Shown: positions 15,394 through 27,481, counted from the first letter of the stretch. The stretch is 45,695 nucleotides of DNA from a phage (GCA_032325415.1 GCA_032325415.1_4119.2), one strand, 5' to 3'. The notes: generated by a model from the letters alone, not told the origin. Made by a program: numbers and translations.

Positions 15394-15396
15394 GTA

Positions 15397-16296: not shown

Positions 16297-16318
16297 TAAC
16301 TTGCAGTACTAACAACAC

Positions 16319-16344: not shown

Positions 16345-16357
16345 TAGGACAAACAAA

Positions 16358-16612
16358 ATGATTAAGGTTCAACTATATAAAGATAATATCTTGCGGGTAC
16401 ACTATAAAGCCCCTCAGAGAATCATCACAAAGGCCGTACAGCTTGCTAATGAGTTTATTAATGGTAACCTATTACCTAGGAAGTTAAGCAACGGGAAACT
16501 GCGTGTAATCGACGTGGACACTAACAACAGGATAGTAATCGAGAACACAGGAAAGATAAACCTTTATGAGCATCAACAATACAATAAGAAAATAAAACTA
16601 ATATCACGTTGA
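16358..16612 (+). CDS. hypothetical protein (84 aa)
   Basis: Track ORF downstream of terminator; weak SD. Confidence 0.5.
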   Translation: MIKVQLYKDNILRVHYKAPQRIITKAVQLANEFINGNLLPRKLSNGKLRVIDVDTNNRIVIENTGKINLYEHQQYNKKIKLISR

Positions 16613-16637
16613 CAGTACTCAAATGTTTTAGTACTAT
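16609..16637 (+). promoter_or_regulatory. putative sigma70-like promoter
   Basis: -35 TTGACA 16609-16614, 17-bp spacer, -10 TACTAT 16632-16637. Confidence 0.45.
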
Positions 16638-16666
16638 ATGTACATACCAACACGGGGAGAAACAAA

Positions 16667-16909
16667 ATGATTACTTTAGAAAAACGTATCAAAGAAACTA
16701 CATCGCTGGTGGAACTGTTAACAGTACTCAAATGTAAAACTACTCGGTTTAGTACACCGGACTTTATTAATATGGTTGATGTTAATGGTCGCTATCGTAT
16801 CACGGTCGAACAAGGAGCGGCGAAAGTATTCAGTACTAAAAACACTAAGGAAGTGATTCACGCTGTAAGTGTTAAAAAAGTAGTTGCCATTGATAGTAAA
16901 GTACTGTAA
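16667..16909 (+). CDS. hypothetical protein (80 aa)
   Basis: SD GGGGAGA then ATG 16667; track ORF. Confidence 0.55.
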   Translation: MITLEKRIKETTSLVELLTVLKCKTTRFSTPDFINMVDVNGRYRITVEQGAAKVFSTKNTKEVIHAVSVKKVVAIDSKVL

Positions 16910-16940
16910 GATAGTTTCATTAACTCAAGGAGAACATGCA

Positions 16941-17525
16941 ATGCGTAATTATACTAAATTCATCCGTACCCTGTCAGAAATGGAAACCAACAAAGAGATC
17001 CTTTCAGCTTGTCGGTTAGCTGGTCTGGAGATCATCGGTGCGGGTTCTTCCCGTATTGTATTCGCTTTAAATGATCGGTTAGTGATTAAGGTCGCGAATT
17101 GTGATGCGGGTGTAGAACAAAATGAAACTGAATGTAAGGTATGGAATTTTTTAGATTATGACCGCCCTCAATTGAAACAGTACTTTGCAAAGGTGCATAT
17201 GCATTTATGCGATCCTGATAATATGTTTATCGTTATGGATCGGTTGAGTACTGCAAGTAAAGGCAGTGTAAAGCACGTAAACGCGTGCAATGAATTAAAG
17301 TACAATATTAAACGTAATGCCATTGAACGCCAGCACCGCTTTGCTGATGCACTACAACACGTTGATGATACATTATCAACACTAACGATAAGAGATATCA
17401 GAAAACAGAATATCGGCCAGGATCGTAATGGCCTTATTAAAGTACTTGATTACGGTTTAACCCGCAATATCTGGAATCAGTACTATAAAAAGCGTGATGT
17501 AGAAGCAAGTAAGGTAACACGATAA
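16941..17525 (+). CDS. putative small protein-kinase-like protein (194 aa)
   Basis: SD AAGGAG then ATG 16941; motifs IGAGSSRIVF (Gly-rich loop), LVIKVA (VAIK-like Lys), IRDIRKQNIG (HRD-x-K-x-x-N-like catalytic loop), KVLDYGL (DFG-like). Confidence 0.55.
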   Translation: MRNYTKFIRTLSEMETNKEILSACRLAGLEIIGAGSSRIVFALNDRLVIKVANCDAGVEQNETECKVWNFLDYDRPQLKQYFAKVHMHLCDPDNMFIVMDRLSTASKGSVKHVNACNELKYNIKRNAIERQHRFADALQHVDDTLSTLTIRDIRKQNIGQDRNGLIKVLDYGLTRNIWNQYYKKRDVEASKVTR

Positions 17526-17526
17526 A

Positions 17527-17612
17527 AAAAGATTAAAAAAGGGATTGACTCCGGTCAGTCCCTTTGCTATTATATATTCATTGAGAGATAACTCACTGAC
17601 CCATAGGGTGCG
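17527..17612 (+). repeat. R module copy 3 (terminator-like hairpin, embedded promoter, conserved core)
   Basis: AAAAAAGGGATTGACTCCGGTCAGTCCCTTT; -35 TTGACT 17545-17550, -10 TATTAT 17568-17573; core GACCCATAGGGTGCGGAAGTGTATCT. Confidence 0.65.
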
Positions 17613-17666
17613 GAAGTGTATCTATTATATAAGTATTCAGTACTGAAAACTATTTTTAAAAAGTAC

Positions 17667-17694
17667 TTGCATTGTACTTAGAATCAAGTATAAT
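17667..17694 (+). promoter_or_regulatory. sigma70-like promoter (cassette type)
   Basis: -35 TTGCAT 17667-17672, 16-bp spacer, -10 TATAAT 17689-17694; hairpin GAGAGGGGAA-ATGG-TTCTCCCTC. Confidence 0.65.
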
Positions 17695-17747
17695 GTTTTA
17701 TATCGAGAGGGGAAATGGTTCTCCCTCAAAGAACAAGGAATAAAATC

Positions 17748-17969
17748 ATGACTACAATGACTTGCATTCACGCTTCAAACCTGCTTAATGATGCGGCCTT
17801 TAATGTTGAAACAGAATATCAATGTTATCGGGATGAAAATAAAAAAGTTTTTGTAGTTGATAATAATGGTTTCCATATTGAATTGCAATCCGGCTTCACT
17901 GGCGTTGATGGTAAATCAGTATGGGGAGTACAGGATGATAAAGGCACATATCATTTTAAACGTAATTAA
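17748..17969 (+). CDS. hypothetical protein (73 aa)
   Basis: SD AAGGAAT then ATG 17748, in frame with track ORF 17715. Confidence 0.65.
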   Translation: MTTMTCIHASNLLNDAAFNVETEYQCYRDENKKVFVVDNNGFHIELQSGFTGVDGKSVWGVQDDKGTYHFKRN

Positions 17970-17972
17970 GTA

Positions 17973-18000
17973 TTGACAAAGTATATCAGTACTGTATAAT
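17973..18000 (+). promoter_or_regulatory. sigma70-like promoter (cassette type)
   Basis: -35 TTGACA 17973-17978, 16-bp spacer with CAGTACTG, -10 TATAAT 17995-18000; hairpin GGGGAGAA-TAG-TTCTCCCC. Confidence 0.65.
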
Positions 18001-18053
18001 AGTTTACATCAAGGGGAGAATAGTTCTCCCCACCAATAAAAGGAAACAAAATT

Positions 18054-18326
18054 ATGTCCAGCTACTCCGCTACTATGATTATTAAAGATATGAACGGTAA
18101 TCCTACTTCTGCTGGTGGATCATTTGGTAACATTAACTTAGATGGGCGGTTATCAATTGAATCAGCCATCAATGCCGCGAAAGAAGTTTTTAAGAATGAA
18201 TGTACTGTAAGCAAGCTGGATTATATGGGCTTCGCTATCGAGAAAACTAATCGTTTTGTGGACTACAAAAAACCACTGATGATCGATACTAACCTGAAAG
18301 CTAACGAAGTGGAATACTTATTATGA
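18054..18326 (+). CDS. hypothetical protein (90 aa)
   Basis: SD AAAGGAAA then ATG 18054; track ORF. Confidence 0.65.
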   Translation: MSSYSATMIIKDMNGNPTSAGGSFGNINLDGRLSIESAINAAKEVFKNECTVSKLDYMGFAIEKTNRFVDYKKPLMIDTNLKANEVEYLL

Positions 18327-18514
18327 CAGTAGAAGAAGTTAAAAAAGTACTGGCAGTACTACGCTATCATAATCATTGCAAGGTGAAGAATGATCCTGAT
18401 TATGTTGATTCATCCCTGGAGGAAGACACATTAAACGCAATAAGCCATATGCAAAAAATGCTTAAGCGTATGACCGAAAAGAACAGGCCAGACTATATCG
18501 GAAATAAAATTTAA
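18323..18514 (+). CDS. hypothetical protein (63 aa)
   Basis: ATG overlaps upstream stop (ATGA), translational coupling; track ORF. Confidence 0.55.
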   Translation: MTVEEVKKVLAVLRYHNHCKVKNDPDYVDSSLEEDTLNAISHMQKMLKRMTEKNRPDYIGNKI

Positions 18515-18521
18515 AAAGTAC

Positions 18522-18549
18522 TTGCATTGTAGTTAGATTAACGTATAAT
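18522..18549 (+). promoter_or_regulatory. sigma70-like promoter (cassette type)
   Basis: -35 TTGCAT 18522-18527, 16-bp spacer, -10 TATAAT 18544-18549; hairpin GCGGGGGAA-TAG-TTCTCCCGC. Confidence 0.65.
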
Positions 18550-18600
18550 GTTTTACATAGAGCGGGGGAATAGTTCTCCCGCCAGTCCAGGAGATACACC

Positions 18601-18864
18601 ATGAACACTATCGAAATCACTATCAATGCACACGTATACGACAACGTAGTACTGCAAACTACTATGACCGCCAATGATACCAGTACTTTGCGGAATGCCG
18701 TTGTAAGTGCTGTATGTGCTGCAATCGGTGATGTAGCCCTGGAAAATGCAGAACACATCAACAACGGTTTCACTATGTGCAAACGTGATAACGCAAAACA
18801 TATCATCGTAGAAGGTTACGGCGGTGTAGAATTTAATGTTTATATGAAAAAAGTACTTGCATAA
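18601..18864 (+). CDS. hypothetical protein (87 aa)
   Basis: SD CCAGGAGA then ATG 18601; last codons overlap the next -35. Confidence 0.65.
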   Translation: MNTIEITINAHVYDNVVLQTTMTANDTSTLRNAVVSAVCAAIGDVALENAEHINNGFTMCKRDNAKHIIVEGYGGVEFNVYMKKVLA

Positions 18865-18884
18865 TAACTAAAACAAAGTATAAT
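18857..18884 (+). promoter_or_regulatory. sigma70-like promoter (cassette type)
   Basis: -35 TTGCAT 18857-18862, 16-bp spacer, -10 TATAAT 18879-18884; hairpin GGGGGAG-ATAT-CCTCCCCC. Confidence 0.65.
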
Positions 18885-18931
18885 GTTTTGCATAGGGGGA
18901 GATATCCTCCCCCACTAAAAGGAGTAATAAA

Positions 18932-19156
18932 ATGGCTAACTTTGATGAACTGATGCGGGAAGTAGCTAACCTGGCAGAAGAGAAGAAATCATTCGATTCT
19001 ATCTATAACACCGCTCACCGTGATTCAGTACTGGCATGTACTCAGGATCAAAAAGATGAACTAATCGCCACCTATCATGAAGCATGGAAGTACTACCGAC
19101 AATGGGAGAAAGAAGAAAGTGAGTCTACCATTGACGGCCTCAATAATCTAATCTAA
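18932..19156 (+). CDS. hypothetical acidic protein (74 aa)
   Basis: SD AAAGGAGT then ATG 18932; track ORF. Confidence 0.65.
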   Translation: MANFDELMREVANLAEEKKSFDSIYNTAHRDSVLACTQDQKDELIATYHEAWKYYRQWEKEESESTIDGLNNLI

Positions 19157-19168
19157 AAGTTTTATTTC

Positions 19169-19205
19169 AGTACTATTGACATAGCTTGATAGTACTGATG
19201 TAATA
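19169..19205 (+). promoter_or_regulatory. promoter with operator-like inverted repeat AGTACTAT-N12-ATAGTACT
   Basis: AGTACTAT 19169-19176, -35 TTGACA 19176-19181, ATAGTACT 19189-19196, -10-like TGTAAT about 19199-19204. Confidence 0.55.
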
Positions 19206-19232
19206 ACTTTACTAACTACAAGGGGAAACATA

Positions 19233-19490
19233 ATGGAACAGTTCACACAATATCGGGTAAATCCTCAAGCTATGGCCTACGTAGAAGACCATAAAACATT
19301 ACCAGTACTGCAACCAGTTAAAGGCCATATCTATCGTGCTATGTCGTGGAGTACGGCCCAGGATGGCTATAAAACCGTAGCCGTTGGTATGTATTGCGGG
19401 AATGGTGAATGGTTTGATCCAAATAATCCGGTAGCCATTGACAGTACTGAAAAAATGAAATGGGCCGACTACATCGAAGATATTTCATAA
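19233..19490 (+). CDS. hypothetical protein (85 aa)
   Basis: SD AAGGGGA then ATG 19233; track ORF. Confidence 0.6.
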   Translation: MEQFTQYRVNPQAMAYVEDHKTLPVLQPVKGHIYRAMSWSTAQDGYKTVAVGMYCGNGEWFDPNNPVAIDSTEKMKWADYIEDIS

Positions 19491-19496
19491 AAAGAA

Positions 19497-19585
19497 TAAA
19501 AAAGGGATTGACTCCGGTCAGTCCCTTTGCTATTATATACGCATAGACAAAAACTAGCCCACAGGGTGCATAGGTGTATCTAAAA
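19497..19585 (+). repeat. R module copy 4 (terminator-like hairpin, embedded promoter, conserved core)
   Basis: AAAAAAGGGATTGACTCCGGTCAGTCCCTTT; -35 TTGACT 19508-19513, -10 TATTAT 19531-19536; core AGCCCACAGGGTGCATAGGTGTATCT. Confidence 0.65.
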
Positions 19586-19670
19586 TATATAGTTAATAAC
19601 GGTGAGTAACTATCTGCTGGTGGATGTACTGCCAGTACTCAAGGGAACTAAAACTATTAATAAAAAAGTA

Positions 19671-19699
19671 TTGACAAAGTATATCAGTACTGCGATAAT
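19671..19699 (+). promoter_or_regulatory. sigma70-like promoter
   Basis: -35 TTGACA 19671-19676, 17-bp spacer with CAGTACTG, -10 GATAAT 19694-19699. Confidence 0.55.
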
Positions 19700-19752
19700 G
19701 TATCTCGTAGGGCGGCAATGGTGCGACGGCCCACAAAGTTAGGAGATTCAAA

Positions 19753-20085
19753 ATGAGTACTTCAATCGCTATCGTTAAAGCTTTCATCCGTACCAATGTT
19801 TCATCTGTATTCATCGACGGACTGGATCGTGAAGTAGAATACTCAATCATTATCGCACAGACTGCAAACGGTGCTCGGTATATCCTCAATGATAGTGAAG
19901 CAAATCACTACTACTTCACTAAAGCTACTGGCTTTAAACGCATCGATGCCGATGTAGTATACGCTAAGATGAATAAGCTGGTAGACAAGATTAACGCTAA
20001 AGGCACTATTGATTTACAGTACTGGACCGAAACCGATCCAGAATATGGATCTCACCGCTACCTGAATCCAGGTATCAAAATGTAA
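19753..20085 (+). CDS. hypothetical protein (110 aa)
   Basis: SD TAGGAG then ATG 19753; track ORF; overlapping minus-strand ORF 19593..19889 rejected. Confidence 0.65.
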   Translation: MSTSIAIVKAFIRTNVSSVFIDGLDREVEYSIIIAQTANGARYILNDSEANHYYFTKATGFKRIDADVVYAKMNKLVDKINAKGTIDLQYWTETDPEYGSHRYLNPGIKM

Positions 20086-20092
20086 AAAGTAC

Positions 20093-20120
20093 TTGCATAG
20101 TACTTAGATTCATGTATAAT
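20093..20120 (+). promoter_or_regulatory. sigma70-like promoter (cassette type)
   Basis: -35 TTGCAT 20093-20098, 16-bp spacer, -10 TATAAT 20115-20120; hairpin GAGGGGGAA-ATGG-TTCTCCCTC. Confidence 0.65.
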
Positions 20121-20174
20121 GTTTTACATAGAGAGGGGGAAATGGTTCTCCCTCCTAAATTAAGGAGTTTTATC

Positions 20175-20576
20175 ATGACCTTCTCAATCACTTCCTTCGC
20201 TGACGTTTTAGTACTGGCTCGGACTTTTGGTAAAGATGCACTGGAGTACGCTGTAAGTAATGGTACTATCCAACCGGAACAGTGCCGCATCATTGGAAAC
20301 TGCAAACGTTGGGCGGTATCCAATACTATTGCACTGGAAAACTTCCACGATGGCAACAATGAATATTCTGTTGATGTAGTATTCGAAGCCGTTGATCTCG
20401 GCGGTATCTATAATACTAACCTGAATGATGTGCGTATCGTTCGCACGGGGTTCGGTGCTTATGATGTATCTATTCGTGAAGCTATGAACACCGGATACAT
20501 TAGCAAGGACTTACTTGCTCACATCATGCAGCTGTGTACGGAACGTAACGAAGCACGTACTATCTTAGGGCTGTAA
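20175..20576 (+). CDS. hypothetical protein (133 aa)
   Basis: SD TAAGGAGT then ATG 20175, in frame with track ORF 20112 whose start is in the promoter. Confidence 0.65.
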   Translation: MTFSITSFADVLVLARTFGKDALEYAVSNGTIQPEQCRIIGNCKRWAVSNTIALENFHDGNNEYSVDVVFEAVDLGGIYNTNLNDVRIVRTGFGAYDVSIREAMNTGYISKDLLAHIMQLCTERNEARTILGL

Positions 20577-20600
20577 GCAATACACATCACCAAACATCAT

Positions 20601-20620
20601 AGGCCGCTCTCTAGCGGCCT
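20601..20620 (+). other. GC hairpin AGGCCGC-TCTCTA-GCGGCCT (weak terminator or RNA-stability element)
   Basis: 7-bp GC stem; no T-run follows. Confidence 0.35.
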
Positions 20621-20644
20621 TAACTATATCAGGAGTACATACAT

Positions 20645-20854
20645 ATGTTCTATACAGTATACAGCGTTCTAGGTACTATTGCAGGCGTACATGATAACGT
20701 CAATGATGCTATGCGTACAGTACTGCAACAGGTTCCACTAAAGCCTAAGACCATTAAGCAGATGACAGCACGACTAACCAGGGCGACCGATGGCGTGGAA
20801 GTATGGCAGGACTACGGGGATACACAGATAATCGTTAGCGTAACGAAGGATTAA
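20645..20854 (+). CDS. hypothetical protein (69 aa)
   Basis: SD CAGGAGT then ATG 20645; track ORF; last gene before the compositional boundary. Confidence 0.6.
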   Translation: MFYTVYSVLGTIAGVHDNVNDAMRTVLQQVPLKPKTIKQMTARLTRATDGVEVWQDYGDTQIIVSVTKD

Positions 20855-20882
20855 TGCGTAAAGGGATCTAGTACTGATTCAG

Positions 20883-20948
20883 AAAAAAGTCAAGGCGTTT
20901 TTAAAATTATGCGTTAAAAAAATGCATAGGTAATCCCTTGACTTTTTT
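20883..20948. promoter_or_regulatory. perfect 13-bp inverted repeat AAAAAAGTCAAGG / CCTTGACTTTTTT with about 40-bp spacer at module boundary
   Basis: Arms at 20883-20895 and 20936-20948; flanked by AAGGGAT / ATCCCTT; related in sequence to the R-module hairpin. Confidence 0.6.
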
Positions 20949-21045
20949 GAAATAAAAGGGATTGGACTATGGCAAAATGCGTAGGGGGCTAAAGGGCGGG
21001 TAACCTTAGCGACTTCGATAAAGGTGTATTACGAATAAAATGTTA

Positions 21046-21073
21046 TTGATTTTTTATACGAATCGTATATTAT
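21046..21073 (+). promoter_or_regulatory. putative promoter for the paralog array, with palindromic operator-like site TATACGA-A-TCGTATA
   Basis: -35 TTGATT 21046-21051, 16-bp spacer, -10 TATTAT 21068-21073; near-perfect palindrome 21055-21069. Confidence 0.45.
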
Positions 21074-21103
21074 AGGATTGATATTATTTTTAATGGAGTC
21101 CCT

Positions 21104-21301
21104 ATGCGTATTTTAACTAAAGAACAGCACCACGAAAGACTTATCAATAACATGGCTATGATAATGTATAAGTCCCATGACCGTGGTATTGCCTATAAGC
21201 GTGAATTAATTATGGCACTATTCATTGGAACTAACTTTCAGGAAAGGTATGTCAACGATTGGATTTGGTATTTAATTGAAGATATAACGAGTAAACTATG
21301 A
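21104..21301 (+). CDS. family-A small paralog (65 aa)
   Basis: Track ORF; C-terminal FIGTNFQERYVNDWIWYLIEDITSKL; SD GGAG. Confidence 0.65.
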   Translation: MRILTKEQHHERLINNMAMIMYKSHDRGIAYKRELIMALFIGTNFQERYVNDWIWYLIEDITSKL

Positions 21302-21498
21302 AAATGCGTATTTTAAATAAAGAAGAATATCAATCACTGTTACGTAAAAACTTCACAAAGATTTATAATACAGACACACACGTAGAACGAATGGAGTTAT
21401 ACCTTTTGATTACTTTGGGAACTAACTATCAGGAAAGATGGGTGATTCAATATATGGATACATTGAAAAATAAAATATTGTCCACGAGGAAACAATGA
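21298..21498 (+). CDS. family-A small paralog (66 aa)
   Basis: ATGA overlap; LGTNYQERWV motif. Confidence 0.65.
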   Translation: MKMRILNKEEYQSLLRKNFTKIYNTDTHVERMELYLLITLGTNYQERWVIQYMDTLKNKILSTRKQ

Positions 21499-21704
21499 AA
21501 ACTATAACACGAACCCAATCATACGGTCTTATCTTGAAATACATGGACTTAATGGTGGATATCAGCAAAGACCTTCCTAAAACTGAAATTGAAGTTGCAA
21601 GAGCAGAGATCCGCATGTTGGCTGTACTGAACACAAACCATCAGGAAGAGTATGTTGACGATTGGATTCGATTTTTAATAGAAGATATTAAGAGTAAACT
21701 ATGA
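21495..21704 (+). CDS. family-A small paralog (69 aa)
   Basis: ATGA overlap; LNTNHQEEYVDDWIRFLIEDIKSKL. Confidence 0.65.
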   Translation: MKTITRTQSYGLILKYMDLMVDISKDLPKTEIEVARAEIRMLAVLNTNHQEEYVDDWIRFLIEDIKSKL

Positions 21705-21916
21705 TTATTATAGAAAACTCATATCAATATACTGAACGCATCGCTGCCAGACAACTTGAAATCCTCATAATATACGAAGCGACTTCTGATTTAAACTTAG
21801 CCGAGGTATTGGAAAATGATATACTATTGGGTGCATTCTTAGGAACAGACTATCAGAAGTATTATGAGGAAAAGTATTTGTCATCTCTTGAGAAATATAT
21901 CAGGAGCAAATTATGA
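21701..21916 (+). CDS. family-A small paralog (71 aa)
   Basis: ATGA overlap; LGTDYQKYYEEKYLSSLEKYIRSKL. Confidence 0.65.
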   Translation: MIIIENSYQYTERIAARQLEILIIYEATSDLNLAEVLENDILLGAFLGTDYQKYYEEKYLSSLEKYIRSKL

Positions 21917-22125
21917 TTTTTTTAACACCAGAAGAATATAAGAAACGTTTCAATTCCGCACAGGGTGAAATCTTACTTATATACCTTTCAAATGCAGACC
22001 TTAACTTATCAAGGGCAATGGAGAAGGATTTACTTATGGGTGCATTTTTGGATACAGACTTTCAGGAGTATTATGTAGGGAAATACTTAATTGAACTTCA
22101 GAACTACATTAAGAGTAAACTATGA
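21913..22125 (+). CDS. family-A small paralog (70 aa)
   Basis: ATGA overlap; LDTDFQEYYVGKYLIELQNYIKSKL. Confidence 0.65.
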   Translation: MIFLTPEEYKKRFNSAQGEILLIYLSNADLNLSRAMEKDLLMGAFLDTDFQEYYVGKYLIELQNYIKSKL

Positions 22126-22349
22126 AACATTTAAGTAATATTGAGAAGATGAGAATTATCATTGATGCATTAAACAAATACGATACCCTTTTACAAATAA
22201 AAGGTTTAACTCGATTGGAACACAAGATAAACACCACCGATGTACGCATGTTGGCTGTACTGGGGACGAACTTTCAGGAAGAGTATGTTGTTGCACACAT
22301 AGTTGCACTCACTAATTACATAATGGACAAATGTAATGAACATCATTAA
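22122..22349 (+). CDS. family-A small paralog (75 aa)
   Basis: ATGA overlap; LGTNFQEEYVVAHIVALTNYIMDKC. Confidence 0.65.
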   Translation: MKHLSNIEKMRIIIDALNKYDTLLQIKGLTRLEHKINTTDVRMLAVLGTNFQEEYVVAHIVALTNYIMDKCNEHH

Positions 22350-22560
22350 TAACTTTGAATACGAGGCCCGTGCTAAGAGTGCCAGAAAAAAAGAGAACAC
22401 CATTTACTTCACTATGATGTACTTACAATGGACTGAAATTGAAGAAAAGGTTGCTGAAGTATGGATGTTGGAATTCATGGGGACGCAGTATCAGAATAGG
22501 TTTGCGGGTGAGTATATCAATGTTCTTATGAAACAAATAGAAAGAAAGGAAAAGAACTAA
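22336..22560 (+). CDS. family-A small paralog (74 aa)
   Basis: Overlapping start; MGTQYQNRFAGEYINVLMKQI. Confidence 0.6.
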   Translation: MNIINNFEYEARAKSARKKENTIYFTMMYLQWTEIEEKVAEVWMLEFMGTQYQNRFAGEYINVLMKQIERKEKN

Positions 22561-22718
22561 TGGTTTTCATTAACATATCTGACCAACTCGATACTAAACT
22601 AGAAGTCGAGCAGAGTGAGGGATGGATGCTGTACTTTCTTGGAACTTCTCATCAGAATTTTTATATCCATGAACACATAGTTGCACTCAAGAATTACATT
22701 ATGGACAAATGCAAATGA
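22560..22718 (+). CDS. family-A paralog, shortened copy (52 aa), not in track
   Basis: ATG 22560 overlaps upstream stop (TAATG); MVFINISDQLDTKLEVEQSEGWMLYFLGTSHQNFYIHEHIVALKNYIMDKCK carries the family motif. Confidence 0.5.
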   Translation: MVFINISDQLDTKLEVEQSEGWMLYFLGTSHQNFYIHEHIVALKNYIMDKCK

Positions 22719-22972
22719 AATACTTAACACAAGATGAATATTCACTTAGAATTCGAAAGCTCACCCCAGAAGCAAGAGTAATCTACGATGACCCCACCCT
22801 TACATGGAACCAAATGCGAGCTAAAGTTAATGAGCTATGGTTGCTGTACTTTATGGGGACTCAATATCAAGATAAGTTTTGCAAAGAATTTGTCGATCAA
22901 TTAATGAATGTTATACAGGATAAACTAGATGAATATTGGCTCGCAAAACATGAAGACTTTATCAGGAGTTGA
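22709..22972 (+). CDS. family-A small paralog (87 aa)
   Basis: Track ORF; MGTQYQDKFCKEFVDQLMNVIQDKL. Confidence 0.6.
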   Translation: MQMKYLTQDEYSLRIRKLTPEARVIYDDPTLTWNQMRAKVNELWLLYFMGTQYQDKFCKEFVDQLMNVIQDKLDEYWLAKHEDFIRS

Positions 22973-23201
22973 GTATCAAACTGCCCTCTTCTCTCTTATT
23001 AACACCCTTAGAAAAAACAATGCATTACATGGTGCACCTGAAGTGGATGTTATCAACGGTGATGTTTATCTTATGAAATTCATTGGAACAAACTATCAAG
23101 ATCTGTTCATTCAACGATACTTGGCAGCATTAAGAAACCAAATCCAATATAAAACCCAGAGAGCCAAAAAAGAATGGAATAAACAATGCGACAAAGAATG
23201 A
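22950..23201 (+). CDS. family-A small paralog (about 83 aa; start uncertain, track start 22929)
   Basis: IGTNYQDLFIQRYLAALRNQI; start set at MKTLSG by analogy to other members. Confidence 0.55.
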   Translation: MKTLSGVEYQTALFSLINTLRKNNALHGAPEVDVINGDVYLMKFIGTNYQDLFIQRYLAALRNQIQYKTQRAKKEWNKQCDKE

Positions 23202-23434
23202 ACCACAAAATGTATTGTAAACTATTGCAGACACTGGCACAGAAACACTATGACACTGTATCTGAAATATTACCCTATGATATCATGCGTTTAATTCATA
23301 GTGAGGCAGAGATGCTTGTACTGATGACAGGCACTGATAAAACAGCAATCGCCAGATCGATAGAGCAATATATTGATGCACACTGCCAACACATGAGAAC
23401 CGAAATCTGGAGGAAAGAGAATGATAATTCTTAA
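23198..23434 (+). CDS. family-A-like small paralog (78 aa; track start 23186)
   Basis: ATGA overlap at 23198; degenerate motif LMTGTDKTAIARSIEQYIDAH. Confidence 0.5.
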   Translation: MNHKMYCKLLQTLAQKHYDTVSEILPYDIMRLIHSEAEMLVLMTGTDKTAIARSIEQYIDAHCQHMRTEIWRKENDNS

Positions 23435-23636
23435 TGAGTATCAGTATCATTGGAGGTTACAAACTATCAAATCAAAAGTGTATAGTATTGTGTTAAACAA
23501 ATCTATTGCACAAGAGGACAAATGTGTTATAATAGCTGAAATGAAGTTGGGTGTATTCGTAGGGACAAACTATCAAAACATCTACACTGACGTATTATTA
23601 AGTTCCTTACGTAACAAGGTGGTATCCAAAATATGA
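23421..23636 (+). CDS. family-A small paralog (71 aa)
   Basis: Track ORF; VGTNYQNIYTDVLLSSLRNKV. Confidence 0.6.
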   Translation: MIILNEYQYHWRLQTIKSKVYSIVLNKSIAQEDKCVIIAEMKLGVFVGTNYQNIYTDVLLSSLRNKVVSKI

Positions 23637-23851
23637 GAAATTTACAAGGCTTTGAATACATCAGACTCCTGAAAACATGTGGAAGCAGAAGGAGAATGAT
23701 ATCAAGCGATAAGAGCATCCAAGCTAACCTTAAGCACGCACTAGTAACTGAACTCTATGTAGGTGCACTCTTAGGCACAAACTATCAACAAATGTATGTA
23801 GATCTATGGATTGACGCTCTACAGAAAGAGGTTAAAAGTAAATGCAAATGA
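23633..23851 (+). CDS. family-A small paralog (72 aa)
   Basis: ATGA overlap; LGTNYQQMYVDLWIDALQKEVKSK. Confidence 0.65.
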   Translation: MRNLQGFEYIRLLKTCGSRRRMISSDKSIQANLKHALVTELYVGALLGTNYQQMYVDLWIDALQKEVKSKCK

Positions 23852-24060
23852 TTAATTTAAGTAAAGACGAATTTTATGTTATACTGGCGAAAACTTATCC
23901 AGCACGTAAGGCCGTTTATGATAGTAACATTATTGAACCCTCAAAGAAGTTGATTTTAGTAAATGAGATAAAGATGCTTTCAGTCTTAGGGACAAACTAT
24001 CAAGAGAATGCTGTACTGATGTTAATTGATGCCCTCCAGCGAGAGGTTAAACGTAAATGA
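23842..24060 (+). CDS. family-A small paralog (72 aa)
   Basis: Track ORF; LGTNYQENAVLMLIDALQREV. Confidence 0.65.
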   Translation: MQMINLSKDEFYVILAKTYPARKAVYDSNIIEPSKKLILVNEIKMLSVLGTNYQENAVLMLIDALQREVKRK

Positions 24061-24287
24061 AAATGATTCATTTAACTTACCATGAATATCAAAAACGTTT
24101 AAATGCATCCAGAGATATAAGGATTCAAATATTCAATAACAAAAGATTGAAGCCTGATATCAGAAAAATCAAAATTATAGAAGCAGAGTTATGCAACTTT
24201 CTAGGGACCAACTATCAGGCAGGTAAGGTAAAAAACTATCTTAGAGAACTAAAGAATAGTATTGAAAATAAATGTGAGGGTAATTAA
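24057..24287 (+). CDS. family-A small paralog (76 aa)
   Basis: ATGA overlap; LGTNYQAGKVKNYLRELKNSIENK. Confidence 0.65.
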   Translation: MKMIHLTYHEYQKRLNASRDIRIQIFNNKRLKPDIRKIKIIEAELCNFLGTNYQAGKVKNYLRELKNSIENKCEGN

Positions 24288-24288
24288 C

Positions 24289-24528
24289 ATGAAAATGATT
24301 AAATTATCTCAAGCAAAATATAAAGAACGCCTGGTGAAAATTGCACCTGGACTTAATGAAATCCATCACGGAGAAGTCATTAAACACGGAAATAAGATGA
24401 TTATGAAACTTGAGTTAAAGGTGGGTGCATTCATAGGAACAAACTATCAGGAGTATTATGTAGATGAATACATAATCGCACTTAAGAGATACATTGGAAG
24501 AAAACTATATCTACAAACTAAAGAATAG
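24289..24528 (+). CDS. family-A small paralog (79 aa; track start 24262)
   Basis: ATG 24289 just after upstream stop; IGTNYQEYYVDEYIIALKRYI. Confidence 0.6.
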   Translation: MKMIKLSQAKYKERLVKIAPGLNEIHHGEVIKHGNKMIMKLELKVGAFIGTNYQEYYVDEYIIALKRYIGRKLYLQTKE

Positions 24529-24557
24529 TATTGAAAATAAATGTGAGGTTGATGAAC

Positions 24558-24821
24558 ATGCAAATGATCAATTTAAGTAAAGATGAATATACCGAGCGTA
24601 TGACAAAAATTACGCACAAACGTAATACAATCTATCACAACCCAGAAATTCAACACAGTAAGAAAATGATTATGATGCGTGAGTTAAAGATGGGTGTATT
24701 CTTAGGAACAAACTATCAAGATACAGAAGTAAATCGCTTAATCGCGGAGTTACTACTGGAAATCAAAGGTAAGCTGTACTTTTATCAAATGACCCAACCA
24801 CTAAGGTGTACTGATCGATGA
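24558..24821 (+). CDS. family-A small paralog (87 aa; track start 24531)
   Basis: Start MQMINLSKDEY matches N-terminus of 23842 gene; LGTNYQDTEVNRLIAELLLEI. Confidence 0.6.
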   Translation: MQMINLSKDEYTERMTKITHKRNTIYHNPEIQHSKKMIMMRELKMGVFLGTNYQDTEVNRLIAELLLEIKGKLYFYQMTQPLRCTDR

Positions 24822-25069
24822 ATACTATGAATAAAATTAATAAAATCGACTTAGCAGAAAGTTTTGCCAGAATGGGGGAAGCTCTGAAAAGATACGAAAA
24901 GGAATATGGTCATTTAAGCTTTTCTATAGAAAAGAGATATGAACTGGAAACAGAGTTTAAAATGCAGAGTCTCTTAGGAACACAATATCAAACAAGATAT
25001 GTTCAAACTTGGATTGATTGTTTAATCCAGACAATTCATGTAAGGAACATTAAATGCAAAATGAAATGA
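24818..25069 (+). CDS. family-A small paralog (83 aa)
   Basis: ATGA overlap; LGTQYQTRYVQTWIDCLIQTI. Confidence 0.65.
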   Translation: MNTMNKINKIDLAESFARMGEALKRYEKEYGHLSFSIEKRYELETEFKMQSLLGTQYQTRYVQTWIDCLIQTIHVRNIKCKMK

Positions 25070-25308
25070 TATACTTAACCTATAATGAATACGTCGAGAG
25101 ATTAGTTCGTGCCAAGAGATATACCAATAAACGTCCAATTGACCTAAACCAAACCCCAGCAGAAAGGAGTGCAGAAGTATTATTCCAATCACTACCATAT
25201 CTTCTGGGAACTGATAGACAAGAGGAATATGTTGCACGTATGATTAGATATCTTAAAATCACTATTAAGGAAAAAGTAAATGCAAATGAAATACTTAACA
25301 GACGATGA
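25054..25308 (+). CDS. family-A small paralog (84 aa; alternative start 25066)
   Basis: Track ORF; LGTDRQEEYVARMIRYLKITIKEK. Confidence 0.6.
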   Translation: MQNEMIYLTYNEYVERLVRAKRYTNKRPIDLNQTPAERSAEVLFQSLPYLLGTDRQEEYVARMIRYLKITIKEKVNANEILNRR

Positions 25309-25531
25309 GTTAAAAGAACGACTAATTAAATCCAGAAAACTTACAAATCAACTTCCAAACGACACAAACAAGTCACATGCCGAAAGGAGTGCAGAAGTTT
25401 TATACATTCAACTCATGTACTTTCTTGGAACTGACAGACAAGAGTATTACATTGAAAGTATGCTTCGATATCTTAAATTCTCTATAAAGGAAAAGATACA
25501 TGCTCAAGAATTTAAAAATCCTAACAGTTAA
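25280..25531 (+). CDS. family-A small paralog (83 aa)
   Basis: Track ORF; close paralog of 25054 (SHAERSAEVLY...LGTDRQEYYIESMLRYLKFSIKEK). Confidence 0.6.
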   Translation: MQMKYLTDDELKERLIKSRKLTNQLPNDTNKSHAERSAEVLYIQLMYFLGTDRQEYYIESMLRYLKFSIKEKIHAQEFKNPNS

Positions 25532-25742
25532 TGAATATCATACGATTGTAATGAAAACTAATAGTGCAATTTCTAAAAAATCAAACCCAAAGTACATACT
25601 GGAACACACATTTGAAGAACGTCAATTAGCTTTAGTTGAAGCAAAACTTCTTGCACTCCTAGGGACTAACTATCAAGAAGAATACATCAGAAAACTAATA
25701 TACCTTTTAACTAAACATATAAGAAAAAGAAAAAATGCATGA
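25500..25742 (+). CDS. family-A small paralog (80 aa)
   Basis: Track ORF; LGTNYQEEYIRKLIYLLTKHI. Confidence 0.6.
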   Translation: MLKNLKILTVNEYHTIVMKTNSAISKKSNPKYILEHTFEERQLALVEAKLLALLGTNYQEEYIRKLIYLLTKHIRKRKNA

Positions 25743-25969
25743 AACACTTGACAGATGATGAACATGGGCTTATAGTAATGGATGTAATCAACATCGAATA
25801 CAAAAAGTTGATACGCTACCGTTGTTATGAAGATAAGCAACTCGTTCTAGCAGAACAGAAGTTGTTTCGACTCTTAAACACAAACTTCCAAGCACAATAC
25901 GAAGAATCGTATATGTACCTTTTGGCGAGGAAAGCAAAAAGAGATTATGAAAATTTTAAGCAAAGGTGA
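25739..25969 (+). CDS. family-A small paralog (76 aa)
   Basis: ATGA overlap; LNTNFQAQYEESYMYLLARK. Confidence 0.6.
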   Translation: MKHLTDDEHGLIVMDVINIEYKKLIRYRCYEDKQLVLAEQKLFRLLNTNFQAQYEESYMYLLARKAKRDYENFKQR

Positions 25970-26162
25970 TTCAGTAATATTACTTATAGAGAGTTCAAGT
26001 AAATTCTTAAACATAACACTGTCTGATATAGATGAAGATGACAAAGAAGTACTGAGAGCAGATTTAAGAGTACTGTTACATATCGGAACAAACCTACAAG
26101 AAGAATATGTAGAGTGCTACATCAATGAACTTAAAGAATCCGTATTGAGAAAATGCAAATGA
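25947..26162 (+). CDS. family-A small paralog (71 aa)
   Basis: Track ORF; IGTNLQEEYVECYINELKESV. Confidence 0.6.
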   Translation: MKILSKGDSVILLIESSSKFLNITLSDIDEDDKEVLRADLRVLLHIGTNLQEEYVECYINELKESVLRKCK

Positions 26163-26401
26163 AAATGAAAATCATTTCACCCACAGAATACAACCAACTA
26201 TTAAGTAGTTTAATTCTAAAGTTGTTTATAACAAAAAGCATGAAATTACCAGATGATGAAATAAGTATTCTAGTAAGTGAAATCTATGTTCAAGCTACAC
26301 TAGGGACTAACTACCAAGAATGCAATATTAATGATTACATCAAAGAACTAAAAAGGTTTATCCAATGCAAATGCGAATCATTACCGACGAAGAATACCTA
26401 A
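26153..26401 (+). CDS. family-A small paralog (82 aa)
   Basis: Track ORF; LGTNYQECNINDYIKELKRFI. Confidence 0.6.
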   Translation: MQMKMKIISPTEYNQLLSSLILKLFITKSMKLPDDEISILVSEIYVQATLGTNYQECNINDYIKELKRFIQCKCESLPTKNT

Positions 26402-26607
26402 CAATCTTAAATGGACTGTTTTTGAAGTTATTTGCCATTAACACATCAAAACTACCAGATACTGATAAAATTATTAAGTTAAATGAAATCTATGTTCAAG
26501 CTACTCTAGGAACTAACTATCAAGAAGCCAATGTGTATAATTACATTAATACACTCAAAAGGGTAATAAAATTAAAATGCACAGACAACACACACACAAA
26601 CCCCTAG
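26365..26607 (+). CDS. family-A small paralog (80 aa)
   Basis: Track ORF; close paralog of 26153 (KLPD...EIYVQATLGTNYQEANVYNYINTLKRVI). Confidence 0.6.
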   Translation: MQMRIITDEEYLTILNGLFLKLFAINTSKLPDTDKIIKLNEIYVQATLGTNYQEANVYNYINTLKRVIKLKCTDNTHTNP

Positions 26608-26807
26608 GAACAGCAGAATACATTGAACTAATGGCATTACACTTCTCATCCTTTCAGAAACTTAGGCGAGAATCAAAGAATGATTTAGAATATACCATCA
26701 GAGGTTCCGATTTAAGAATGCTTCTCACCCTAGACACAGATTCCCAAGAGCGATTTGTCAATGAGCATATTAGAGCACTTTTAATGGAAATTCAAAGTAA
26801 ACTATGA
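26577..26807 (+). CDS. family-A small paralog (76 aa)
   Basis: Track ORF; LDTDSQERFVNEHIRALLMEIQSKL. Confidence 0.6.
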   Translation: MHRQHTHKPLGTAEYIELMALHFSSFQKLRRESKNDLEYTIRGSDLRMLLTLDTDSQERFVNEHIRALLMEIQSKL

Positions 26808-27019
26808 AGATAATATCAAACCAAGAGTACTTGGCACTATTCAGGAAGAATAATCACAAATATATGGCACTTGATTCAAGAACTGATATAAGTGAACTTG
26901 AAAAAAATCTTTTGCGTTCAGATATGATAGTACTGACACTCTTAGGAACACAGCATCAAGAGAGAACTGTTAATTCACACATAGGTATTCTTATACAGAT
27001 TGTACAGGAAAAGATATGA
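26804..27019 (+). CDS. family-A small paralog (71 aa)
   Basis: ATGA overlap; LGTQHQERTVNSHIGILIQIV. Confidence 0.65.
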   Translation: MKIISNQEYLALFRKNNHKYMALDSRTDISELEKNLLRSDMIVLTLLGTQHQERTVNSHIGILIQIVQEKI

Positions 27020-27237
27020 GAATCATAACACAACAAGATATTCTTAAGTTCACAAGGGTTCATGCATCTGAATTTGATGCTATATTATCAAAAAGTTACA
27101 ACAACCCTTATACACAAGATGTACATTACAGTGAATTATGGATGTATATACTTTTAGGTACAAATAAGCAAGAGCAAGCCGTACAGAAGTATTTGACAGC
27201 TTTACGTGATGCTACAGCTAATGGAGTATGTGTTTAA
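27016..27237 (+). CDS. family-A small paralog (73 aa)
   Basis: ATGA overlap; LGTNKQEQAVQKYLTALRDA. Confidence 0.65.
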   Translation: MRIITQQDILKFTRVHASEFDAILSKSYNNPYTQDVHYSELWMYILLGTNKQEQAVQKYLTALRDATANGVCV

Positions 27238-27238
27238 T

Positions 27239-27481
27239 ATGAAAGTACTGACAGAACTAGAAATGTATCATAGATTTAATAAGTACTATCATTTACTTAA
27301 GCCTATACAGAGGATTAAATGTCCATTTGAAGAGAAACAGGTTTTAATCTATGAGCACAAGTTCTTTGTATCATTAGGTACAGATCAACAAGAGTACTAT
27401 TTGACGTTGTACTTGATTACATTAATAGATTTAATTCACTATAAAACCAAACAAGCTAATAAAGAGAAATATGAAAACTAA
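27239..27481 (+). CDS. family-A small paralog (80 aa; track start 27206)
   Basis: ATG 27239 right after upstream stop; LGTDQQEYYLTLYLITLIDLI. Confidence 0.6.
   Translation: MKVLTELEMYHRFNKYYHLLKPIQRIKCPFEEKQVLIYEHKFFVSLGTDQQEYYLTLYLITLIDLIHYKTKQANKEKYEN

What the first reader, a model, noticed from the sequence alone, without database searches (positions are those of the whole stretch)
21104..27481. Tandem array of about 30 family-A small paralogs with C-terminal LGTNYQE-x-YV motif
About 6.4 kb contains roughly 29 consecutive 65-90 aa genes, with four more related copies at 28782-29236 and 41822-42212. Each ends in a block like h-h-LGTNYQE-x-YV-x-x-x-I-x-x-L-x-x-x-I-x-x-K. N-termini are variable but often begin M-x-x-I/L-x-x-x-E-Y. 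Genes are translationally coupled through overlapping start and stop codons. Such dense amplification of one small-protein family is unusual and not something I can assign to a known function.
Basis: seen in the sequence. Interest (0 to 1): 0.85.

Follow-up and report, generated by a model that had tools for sequence, protein, structure and literature searches.

The report
Jumbo-phage array of 33 small paralogs
A giant E. coli phage carries 33 diverged copies of one small four-helix protein gene, 29 of them packed into one operon-like block right after its terminal repeat; they are real, selected genes of unknown function, most likely a panel of early host-interaction proteins.

Summary
A profile of the family finds 33 members in the window: 29 back-to-back at 21104-27481, two at 28782-29236 and two at 41822-42212. 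All are on the + strand, and no other frame or strand gives a hit.

The window is the terminal-repeat region of an Asteriusvirus jumbo coliphage (PBECO4/121Q group). The array starts about 100 bp after the right end of the ~21 kb direct terminal repeat. It lies behind a conserved sigma-70-like promoter and has no internal spacers or terminators.

The proteins are about 24% identical to each other. AlphaFold gives a very confident four-helix domain (pLDDT 97.8). The LGTNYQ motif sits in the loop before helix 4. No solved structure, Pfam, defence-system (PADLOC) or other viral protein matches; the only family hit is PHROG 4148, function unknown.

Orthologs are under purifying selection, on surface positions too. 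Copy number and content differ between phages (22-33). Klebsiella phage RaK2 has 12-13 scattered copies.

No function can be assigned by homology. My best inference is an early, translationally coupled operon of diversified binding modules for host takeover or counter-defence. The array is not new as an observation: the genomes are public, and a 2017 paper has one sentence that may refer to it.

The parts
20996..21018 (+). Conserved block GCGGGTAACCTTAGCGACTTCGA at the right end of the direct terminal repeat (DTR); the boundary is near 21005
   Evidence: It is invariant in the window, fEgEco12, 121Q and the divergent Turkey5. The published DTR ends of fEgEco12 (20,993 bp, PMC13070987) and vB_Ec-M-J (repeat_region 1..21525) map here through.
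21046..21073 (+). Sigma-70-like promoter candidate for the array: TTGATT-16-TATTAT (TTGACT in relatives)
   Evidence: Found by the consensus scan. The -35 and -10 are conserved in fEgEco12, 121Q, Turkey5, ph0011, vB_Ec-M-J and UE-S1. Function is inferred, not shown.
21095..21098 (+). Shine-Dalgarno GGAG of the first array gene
   Evidence: Read from the sequence; GGAGTCCC is conserved in relatives.
21104..21301 (+). Family member 1 (65 aa)
   Evidence: HMM 64.5 bits
21298..21498 (+). Member 2 (66 aa; family-aligned start 21304)
   Evidence: HMM 67.3 bits; phrog_4148 E 1e-19
21495..21704 (+). Member 3 (69 aa)
   Evidence: HMM 73.9 bits
21701..21916 (+). Member 4 (71 aa)
   Evidence: HMM 60.5 bits
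21913..22125 (+). Member 5 (70 aa)
   Evidence: HMM 72.8 bits
22122..22349 (+). Member 6 (75 aa)
   Evidence: HMM 79.2 bits
22336..22560 (+). Member 7 (74 aa)
   Evidence: HMM 76.4 bits
22560..22718 (+). Member 8 (52 aa; N-terminally short, matches profile positions 25-72 only)
   Evidence: HMM 59.6 bits
22709..22972 (+). Member 9 (87 aa; family-aligned start 22715)
   Evidence: HMM 87.7 bits
22929..23201 (+). Member 10 (90 aa; family-aligned start 22950)
   Evidence: HMM 64.2 bits; phrog_4148 E 1e-17
23186..23434 (+). Member 11 (82 aa; divergent, TGTDKT with a 6-residue insertion in the loop)
   Evidence: HMM 57.0 bits; alignment
23421..23636 (+). Member 12 (71 aa)
   Evidence: HMM 76.5 bits
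23633..23851 (+). Member 13 (72 aa); the sequence modelled by AlphaFold2
   Evidence: HMM 84.0 bits; model pLDDT 97.8
23842..24060 (+). Member 14 (72 aa; family-aligned start 23848)
   Evidence: HMM 73.1 bits
24057..24287 (+). Member 15 (76 aa; family-aligned start 24063)
   Evidence: HMM 80.6 bits
24262..24528 (+). Member 16 (likely start 24289 or 24295)
   Evidence: HMM 85.0 bits. With member 17 it forms the only tandem duplication still visible at the DNA level (period 269, 76% matches).
24531..24821 (+). Member 17 (likely start 24558 or 24564)
   Evidence: HMM 82.5 bits; TRF
24818..25069 (+). Member 18 (83 aa)
   Evidence: HMM 61.1 bits
25054..25308 (+). Member 19 (family-aligned start 25066)
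   Evidence: HMM 72.4 bits
25280..25531 (+). Member 20 (family-aligned start 25286)
   Evidence: HMM 76.5 bits
25500..25742 (+). Member 21 (80 aa)
   Evidence: HMM 69.7 bits
25739..25969 (+). Member 22 (76 aa); contains an intragenic TTGACA-17-TATAGT site at 25748-25776
   Evidence: HMM 52.7 bits; promoter-like site, significance unresolved
25947..26162 (+). Member 23 (71 aa)
   Evidence: HMM 70.8 bits
26153..26401 (+). Member 24 (family-aligned start 26165)
   Evidence: HMM 84.7 bits
26365..26607 (+). Member 25 (family-aligned start 26371)
   Evidence: HMM 81.8 bits
26577..26807 (+). Member 26 (76 aa)
   Evidence: HMM 66.9 bits
26804..27019 (+). Member 27 (71 aa)
   Evidence: HMM 73.4 bits
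27016..27237 (+). Member 28 (73 aa)
   Evidence: HMM 72.3 bits
27206..27481 (+). Member 29 (family-aligned start 27239); last gene of the contiguous block
   Evidence: HMM 69.7 bits
28782..29000 (+). Member 30 (72 aa), outlying pair
   Evidence: HMM 63.1 bits
28970..29236 (+). Member 31 (88 aa), outlying pair
   Evidence: HMM 49.3 bits
41822..42043 (+). Member 32 (divergent, VGSNKQ), outlying pair inside the second paralog superfamily
   Evidence: HMM 59.0 bits; ORF
42021..42212 (+). Member 33 (63 aa), outlying pair
   Evidence: HMM 59.2 bits

Best explanation
The block is a single polycistronic unit of 29 real protein-coding genes, plus 4 outlying copies. It arose by repeated tandem duplication of one ~72-residue gene and then diverged deeply. 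It is the first transcription unit after the right end of the ~21 kb direct terminal repeat of an Asteriusvirus jumbo phage. It is probably read by host RNA polymerase from a conserved sigma-70-like promoter, and its cistrons are probably translated by coupling through ATGA/TAATG overlaps. Each product is a small soluble four-helix domain. Its conserved residues are the hydrophobic core and helix-capping positions (T/S5-x-x-E8 and G48-T49-x-x-Q52). Its surfaces differ completely between paralogs but are kept within each orthologous lineage. I infer that the array is a panel of binding modules with different specificities, made early in infection, that engage strain-variable host components: host takeover or neutralisation of defence systems. 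The repertoire turns over by unequal crossing-over at repeated gene junctions and by cassette exchange between related phages. Shown: gene reality, family, predicted fold, selection, copy-number turnover, position relative to the terminal repeat. Inferred: time of expression, translational coupling, and the binding or counter-defence role.
For: Real, constrained genes:
- There are 33 profile hits, only in the predicted frames.
- Ortholog dN/dS is 0.37-0.39 pooled.
- dN/dS is 0.11-0.23 at core columns and 0.41-0.51 at surface columns in six genome comparisons. Surfaces are therefore constrained within lineages, while paralogs share only 24% identity and range from pI 4.5 to 9.9 and net charge -5.5 to +7.8.

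Fold:
- AlphaFold2 on the 33-paralog alignment gives pLDDT 97.8 and four helices.
- The conserved columns are core and capping positions.

Position and signals:
- The DTR end maps to about 21005. The first array gene starts 98-99 bp after the DTR end in fEgEco12 and vB_Ec-M-J.
- A TTGAC(T)-16-TAT(A/T)AT site is conserved in seven relatives.
- There are no intergenic gaps above 35 nt, and 20 of 28 junctions have overlapping stop/start codons.
- No convincing terminator lies in the block.
- The adjacent DTR is a battery of at least 23 near-consensus sigma-70 promoters driving small genes. Relatives annotate spackle, a DksA-like protein, a GNAT acetyltransferase and a Ser/Thr kinase there. This is the layout of an early host-takeover region.

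Turnover:
- Total copies are 33, 32, 27 and 22 in the window, fEgEco12, 121Q and Turkey5. The main block holds 25-29 in four more phages.
- dS between orthologs varies about 30-fold from gene to gene, 0.02-0.74, which indicates mosaic exchange.
- Junction 12-mers recur: AGTAAACTATGA four times and AAATGCAAATGA four times exactly.
- Neighbouring copies are more alike than distant ones (31% against 25%).
- One duplication is still visible at the DNA level.

Not structural: none of the 62 virion proteins of phAPEC6 comes from this region (PMC7247149).
Against: There is no expression, interaction or phenotype data for any member. No homology links the family to any known anti-defence, regulatory or host-binding protein. 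The promoter is a consensus match only. These phages also encode their own sigma factor (PMC11895373), so timing is open. Ortholog comparisons show net purifying rather than positive selection, so an arms race is not demonstrated. The high divergence is shared by the whole 21-46 kb region and is not specific to this family. Near-equimolar coupled synthesis would fit a multi-subunit assembly as well as a panel of independent binders.
Confidence: 0.4

Rival explanations
1. The paralogs work on the phage's own processes. They could be subunits of a hetero-oligomeric assembly or adaptors for phage replication, transcription or morphogenesis, rather than acting on host targets.
For: Tight translational coupling is typical of operons whose products are needed in fixed ratios. 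All copies keep the same core, so they could pack against each other. Surface constraint within lineages fits any specific partner, including a phage one.
Against: Copy number and content vary between closely related phages, from 22 to 33, with gains, losses and order swaps. RaK2 has only 12-13 scattered copies. That is hard to reconcile with a fixed multi-subunit machine. None was detected in virions. Net charges from -5.5 to +7.8 argue against equivalent subunits.
Confidence: 0.2
2. The array is mostly dispensable ballast: duplicated DNA that filled an enlarged capsid (the capsid-size ratchet of Hua et al.). It would persist under weak selection with no distinct function per copy.
For: Hua et al. 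2017 (PMC5646251) proposed tandem duplication as a route to genome expansion in 121Q and phage G. Array dN/dS (0.37-0.39) is higher than in the DTR genes (0.15-0.16). Individual copies are lost in some phages.
Against: All 33 reading frames are intact despite 24% identity between paralogs. Orthologs are retained across phages at 57-100% identity. Even surface positions have dN/dS of 0.41-0.51, well below neutrality. These phages package a genome with defined ~21 kb terminal repeats rather than arbitrary headfuls, which weakens the filler argument.
Confidence: 0.15
3. They are small helix-turn-helix DNA-binding regulators, with LGTNYQExYV as the turn and recognition helix.
For: The motif hh-LG-T-x-x-Q-x-x-V-x-x-x-I-x-x-L looks superficially like HTH signatures (my own reading of the sequence).
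Confidence: 0.05
4. They are virion or inner-body components packaged with the DNA.
For: 121Q and phAPEC6 have an inner body whose composition is not fully assigned.
Against: None of the 62 proteins in the phAPEC6 virion proteome comes from this region, and there are no entries between gp347 and gp549. Small proteins are easily missed by MS, so the negative result is weak.
Confidence: 0.05

Closest known systems
PHROG family phrog_4148 (unknown function), i.e. the 'hypothetical proteins' annotated in PBECO4, 121Q, phAPEC6, fEgEco12 and other Asteriusvirus genomes
   Same: All ten members tested match the 74-position profile end to end, with E from 7e-9 to 1e-26. The DNA is 84-96% identical to the same block in those phages.
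   Different: Nothing; this is the same family. It carries no functional annotation. PBECO4's own annotation calls only 17 genes in a block where the profile finds 29.
[quoted passage not shown]
   Same: Same phage group, and the same idea of tandem duplication.
   Different: The paper gives no coordinates, family description or function. 121Q has 27 copies of this family. A second superfamily has at least 28 copies in the adjacent 18 kb of the window, so I cannot tell which array was meant. 'Very similar' does not describe paralogs that are 24% identical.
Host-takeover modules in phage terminal repeats (SPO1 gp37-60, T5 pre-early genes; my own knowledge of the literature)
   Same: Many small, same-strand genes of unknown function at a genome end beside a long terminal repeat. 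The DTR here has exactly that architecture of strong sigma-70 promoters.
   Different: The array lies just outside the repeat. It has one candidate promoter instead of one per gene, and it consists of paralogs of a single family rather than unrelated genes.
Multigene families near the termini of large eukaryotic DNA viruses (ASFV MGF110/360/505, poxvirus ankyrin/host-range families and 'genomic accordions'; my own knowledge)
   Same: Tandem same-strand paralogs next to terminal repeats, with copy-number variation between isolates, birth-and-death evolution, and a conserved scaffold with diverged surfaces.
   Different: The sequence and fold are unrelated, and the host is bacterial. A role in host range or immune evasion is established for those families and is only inferred here.
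Scattered copies of the same family in Klebsiella phage RaK2 (Alcyoneusvirus)
   Same: There are 12-13 profile hits with the same M-K-x-L...LGTNYQ...I-x-x-L architecture, interleaved with the same second superfamily.
   Different: They occur in clusters of 1-3 rather than one 29-gene block, and are only about 30-40% identical. The large block is an Asteriusvirus expansion.

Membership tests
phrog_4148 (PHROGs v4, unknown function) | Significant full-length match to the family profile | tested here: met
   10 of 10 members match, E from 7e-9 to 1e-26, covering profile positions about 1-73 of 74.
Helix-turn-helix DNA-binding proteins (Cro/Xre, MerR, sigma region 4) | Match to an HTH sequence profile | tested here: not met
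   No HTH family matched any of the 33 members at E up to 1. Each of the 23 weak Pfam hits is to a different family and comes from a single member.
Helix-turn-helix DNA-binding proteins (Cro/Xre, MerR, sigma region 4) | Three-helix HTH or winged-helix fold | tested here: not met
Virus multigene family made by tandem duplication | Several homologous genes head-to-tail on one strand | tested here: met
   29 contiguous members plus 4 nearby, all on the + strand.
Virus multigene family made by tandem duplication | Traces of duplication: neighbours more alike than distant copies, and recent duplicates | tested here: met
   Adjacent copies are 31% identical against about 25% for distant ones. Members 16 and 17 form a 269-bp tandem repeat at 76%. 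Junction 12-mers are repeated.
Virus multigene family made by tandem duplication | Copy-number and content variation between related genomes | tested here: met
   Total copies are 33, 32, 27 and 22. Main blocks hold 29, 27, 26 and 25. There are gains, losses and order swaps.
Virus multigene family made by tandem duplication | Role in host range or immune evasion | not testable with these tools
   This needs deletion mutants and host panels.
Terminal-repeat-encoded early host-takeover module (SPO1/T5 type) | Genes lie inside the terminal repeat | tested here: not met
   The DTR ends near 21005 and the array starts at 21104. In fEgEco12 and vB_Ec-M-J the first array gene starts 98-99 bp after the DTR end.
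Terminal-repeat-encoded early host-takeover module (SPO1/T5 type) | Strong host-type promoters in front of individual genes | tested here: not met
   The DTR has at least 23 promoters matching 10-12 of 12 positions. The array has one conserved upstream candidate and only 4 intragenic matches, about what chance gives.
Terminal-repeat-encoded early host-takeover module (SPO1/T5 type) | Expression in the first minutes of infection | not testable with these tools
   I found no transcriptome of an Asteriusvirus in the searched literature.
DNA-mimic anti-restriction proteins (Ocr/ArdA type) | Strongly acidic surface in all members | tested here: not met
   pI ranges from 4.5 to 9.9, and about half the members are basic.
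Known defence-system components (PADLOC-DB) | Match to a defence protein profile | tested here: not met
   Only single-member chance hits, to seven different models. No anti-defence (Acr and similar) library was available, so that was not tested.
Virion structural proteins | Detected in purified particles | tested here: inconclusive
   The published phAPEC6 virion proteome lists no protein from this region (PMC7247149). However, 7-10 kDa proteins are easily missed, and I mapped gene numbers by position only.

The most novel reading that the evidence does not exclude
The array, perhaps together with the neighbouring second superfamily of at least 28 copies, is a germline-encoded repertoire. One small four-helix scaffold with no structural relative would be diversified into some thirty specificities, each neutralising a different strain-variable host factor such as a defence system or toxin. 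Cassettes would be gained, lost and swapped between co-infecting jumbo phages. That would be a new anti-defence protein family and a bacterial-virus counterpart of the terminal multigene families of poxviruses and ASFV.
Probability: 0.3. Interest if true: 0.75.

Novelty: new variant of a known kind. Interest (0 to 1): 0.5.

Why it matters
Most genes of jumbo phages have no known function. Here about 14% of a 46 kb window (6.4 kb) is one family, and most of the next 18 kb is another. If the paralogs are specific binders of host factors, the array offers some thirty ready-made probes or inhibitors for E. coli defence or physiology. It would also help explain how these phages plate on varied hosts. 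The domain is small, predicted with very high confidence, and tolerates almost any surface, which makes it attractive as a scaffold. The sharp break at the terminal-repeat boundary is a clean case for studying how variable regions of large phage genomes evolve: 96% protein identity inside the repeat against about 41% just outside, for the same pair of phages.

Tried and rejected
- HTH or sigma-region-4 mimic reading of the motif: rejected. There are no profile matches and no fold matches.
- Profile search of 1.84 billion representative proteins: only 99 clusters, all small stand-alone proteins except one 269-aa fusion. The word-indexed search of 5.8 billion proteins returns only 'hypothetical protein' entries from phage or E. 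coli assemblies.
- Domain-fusion clue: P0091 (EC.P1/UB) joins a family domain to a ~190-aa part that is homologous to a RaK2 protein. That part has no Pfam match and is absent from the window.
- Dimerisation test: I tried the natural two-domain fusion P0100 (members 21 and 22 joined). MAFFT could not align single-domain members to it correctly. The single-sequence AlphaFold model was useless, with pLDDT 41.
- DNA-level function of the repeats: TRF finds only one 1.8-copy duplication, and Rfam finds nothing in the window. The periodicity is at the protein level only.
- Neighbouring genes as a guide: ten downstream proteins have no Pfam match and only unknown-function PHROGs.
- Literature: no paper in the searched library assigns a function or reports expression.

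Full report
**1. The observation**

The region 21104-27481 holds 29 consecutive + strand ORFs of 52-96 aa. Every one carries a [LIVM][GND]T[NDQ]xQ motif 25-39 residues from its C-terminus. Two more copies lie at 28782-29236 and two at 41822-42212.

A MAFFT alignment of the 33 sequences shows a shared architecture, with 13-39% identity to the reference member. A profile built from it and searched against all six reading frames of the window returns exactly these 33. All are on the + strand, with E-values from 1e-14 to 1e-26, and nothing else is hit.

Of the 28 junctions in the block, 20 have an ATGA or TAATG stop/start overlap. The others overlap by 14-32 nt or are separated by at most 35 nt.

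**2. Where the window comes from**

The block is 84-96% identical to a collinear block in Escherichia phages PBECO4, 121Q, phAPEC6, fEgEco12 and others, and in four Salmonella isolates. These are 36 records, all jumbo myoviruses of genus Asteriusvirus, and every gene is annotated 'hypothetical protein'.

These phages have ~21 kb direct terminal repeats: 20,993 bp in fEgEco12 (confirmed there by restriction mapping), 21,525 bp in vB_Ec-M-J and 20,668 bp in Sharanji (PMC13070987 and PMC11895373).

- Window 1-1500 aligns to fEgEco12 353,082-354,581. That puts the start of the repeat near window position 660.
- Window 19500-21400 aligns to fEgEco12 19,509-21,387.
- In fEgEco12 the first array gene, g057, starts at 21,091, which is 98 bp after the repeat ends.
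- In vB_Ec-M-J the annotated repeat ends at 21,525 and the first array gene starts at 21,624.
- The boundary falls in the block GCGGGTAACCTTAGCGACTTCGA (window 20996-21018). This block is invariant even in the divergent phage Turkey5.

The array is therefore the first coding unit of the unique region, immediately after the terminal repeat.

**3. Transcription and translation signals**

Inside the repeat nearly every small gene has its own cassette. It consists of a near-consensus sigma-70 promoter, a GGGGAG...CTCCCC hairpin and a strong ribosome-binding site. There are 23 promoters matching at least 10 of 12 positions, ten of them perfect. Relatives annotate spackle, a DksA-like protein, a GNAT acetyltransferase and a Ser/Thr kinase there. 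This is the layout of an early host-takeover region.

The array is organised quite differently.

- A 249-bp leader holds one sigma-70-like site, TTGATT-16-TATTAT at 21046-21073 (TTGACT in six relatives). It is conserved down to Turkey5.
- After that come 6.4 kb without spacers.
- The only strong intragenic promoter-like site is at 25748. It lies in a gene that is 97-99% conserved anyway, so its conservation says nothing.
- No convincing terminator lies in the block.

I infer one operon read by host polymerase with coupled translation. Neither point is shown, and these phages also encode their own sigma factor.

**4. The protein**

AlphaFold2 on the 33-paralog alignment gives a very confident model, with mean pLDDT 97.8 and pTM 0.83. 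It has helices at 6-14, 17-25, 31-45 and 52-71, and a one-residue bridge between residues 2 and 49.

Over 129 family sequences the conserved columns fall into two groups:

- Hydrophobic positions with helical spacing: L4, Y9, L13, I23, V36, L43, L47, V56, Y59, I60, L63 and I67.
- Polar positions at helix starts: T/S5-x-x-E8 before helix 1 and G48-T49-x-x-Q52 before helix 4. These look like capping boxes. E40 and K70 are also conserved.

The 'LGTNYQE' motif is thus the loop and N-cap of the last helix. Q52 is 98% conserved. That is more than capping alone would need, so a functional role for this loop is not excluded.

The other positions vary freely. Paralogs average 24% identity (maximum 54%), pI runs from 4.5 to 9.9 and net charge from -5.5 to +7.8. 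All are hydrophilic, with no membrane segments.

**5. No relative of known function**

- Pfam: nothing consistent. Each weak hit comes from a single member.
- PADLOC: the same picture.
- PDB sequences with the profile: nothing below E 0.9.
- Foldseek on PDB: nothing below E 3.
- BFVD: only the family's own members from 121Q, UB, PBECO4 and slurp01.
- PHROGs: phrog_4148, function unknown.

In 1.84 billion representative proteins the profile finds only 99 clusters. All are 52-122 aa except one fusion. The named ones are 'hypothetical protein' entries from these phages, or from E. coli assemblies that contain such a phage.

**6. Evolution**

Copy number differs between phages.

| Phage | Total copies | Copies in main block |
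|---|---|---|
| Window | 33 | 29 |
| fEgEco12 | 32 | 28 |
| 121Q | 27 | 23 |
| Turkey5 | 22 | not separated |
| PBECO4 | not counted | 29 |
| ph0011 | not counted | 27 |
| vB_Ec-M-J | not counted | 26 |
| UE-S1 | not counted | 25 |

There are losses, one lineage-specific extra copy, a duplicated member and local order swaps.

Duplication traces remain:

- Neighbours are more alike than distant copies (31% against about 25%).
- One 269-bp duplication is still visible in the DNA.
- Two 12-mers recur at gene junctions far above chance. They could serve unequal crossing-over.

Selection between orthologs:

- Pooled dN/dS is 0.37-0.39.
- Split by column class, dN/dS is 0.11-0.23 in the core and 0.41-0.51 on the surface, in six independent genome comparisons.
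- Each paralog's surface is therefore constrained within its lineage, although surfaces differ completely between paralogs. That is what distinct, maintained specificities would give. It also argues against pure ballast.
- I did not detect positive selection at this coarse level.
- dS varies about 30-fold from gene to gene within one genome pair (0.02-0.74), which indicates cassette-scale recombination.

Between the window and Turkey5, DTR proteins are 96% identical (dS 0.23). Array and downstream proteins are about 41% identical, with dS saturated. The break coincides with the repeat boundary and is not specific to this family.

The family is older than the genus. Klebsiella phage RaK2 (Alcyoneusvirus) has 12-13 copies in clusters of 1-3, interleaved with the second superfamily.

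**7. What it most likely does**

Homology gives no function, so this is inference from anatomy. The relevant features are:

- a position next to an early takeover region;
- a host-type promoter;
- soluble products of 7-10 kDa;
- one rigid scaffold with some thirty different but individually conserved surfaces;
- rapid gain, loss and exchange between phages;
- absence from the published virion proteome of phAPEC6, where 62 proteins were found and none comes from this region (PMC7247149).

Together these fit a panel of binding modules directed at strain-variable host components, for host takeover or counter-defence. I give this 0.4.

The rivals are:

- subunits or adaptors for the phage's own machinery (0.2);
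- weakly selected duplicated ballast, as in the capsid-ratchet idea of Hua et al. (0.15);
- HTH regulators (0.05, tested and not supported);
- virion components (0.05).

**8. Comparison with what is known**

The family is phrog_4148 and is present in public genomes. Hua et al. [quoted passage not shown] They gave no details. It may be this family or the neighbouring superfamily, which has at least 28 members in window 27471-45619.

Functionally the closest analogues are the terminal multigene families of ASFV and poxviruses, and the terminal-repeat takeover modules of SPO1 and T5 (my own knowledge). The array shares the position, the tandem paralogy and the turnover of the former. It fails two defining features of the latter, because it lies outside the repeat and lacks per-gene promoters.

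**9. Verdict**

The finding is real and accurately described, and it is not an artefact. It is not new as an observation, and no new mechanism is demonstrated.

New here:

- the exact placement relative to the terminal repeat;
- the confident four-helix model without structural relatives;
- the core/surface selection pattern;
- the turnover data;
- the link to RaK2.

Interest is moderate (0.5). It would rise if a counter-defence role were shown.

Noticed in passing
window 27471-45619: A second paralog superfamily has 28 members of 103-204 aa, many with a LSxEEYFQxS-like motif. It fills most of the 18 kb after the array and probably continues past the window end. It has no Pfam match and only unknown-function PHROGs. 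Family A copies 30-33 are embedded in it. RaK2 has at least 20 copies interleaved with family A.
   Followed up: partly
window ~660-21005 (direct terminal repeat): Almost every small gene in the repeat has its own cassette: AGTACT, a near-consensus sigma-70 promoter, a GGGGAGnnnnnTTCTCCCC-type 5'-UTR hairpin and a strong SD. There are 23 promoters matching at least 10 of 12 positions, ten of them perfect.
   Followed up: partly
window 3770-3900, 10790-10920, 14815-14945, 17537-17667, 19500-19630: There are five copies of an intergenic element. A promoter is embedded in a palindrome (AAAAGGGATTGACTCCGGTCAGTCCCTTT...TATTAT), followed by a conserved ~50-nt stretch (...GCCCACAGGGTGC..GTGTATCTAT). 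This could be a family of small RNAs or operator-controlled leaders. Rfam has no match. A related AAAAGGGATTGGACT box lies upstream of the array at 20955-20969 and is conserved in relatives.
   Followed up: partly
window ~21005 (repeat boundary): There is a sharp break in conservation between this phage and Turkey5. Proteins inside the repeat are 96% identical (dS 0.23), while those just outside are about 41% identical (dS saturated). This suggests recent exchange or homogenisation of the repeat, or an old, highly variable region next to it.
   Followed up: partly
window 28187-28215: A strong promoter-like site (TTGACA-17-TATAGT with an upstream TG) sits in the 59-bp gap before the gene at 28245-28490. 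That gene encodes an 81-aa protein with a hydrophobic N-terminus and matches phrog_8826.
   Followed up: no
L007 (PBECO4 KC295538 125226-132183): The reference PBECO4 record annotates only 17 genes in a block where the family profile finds 29. The array is under-annotated in older records.
   Followed up: yes
P0100 and P0091 (public proteins from metagenome and phage assemblies): Two gene fusions were found. Members 21 and 22 are joined into one 154-aa protein. In phages EC.P1 and UB a family domain is joined to a ~190-aa domain that RaK2 encodes separately. Either could be a frameshift or a sequencing error.
   Followed up: partly
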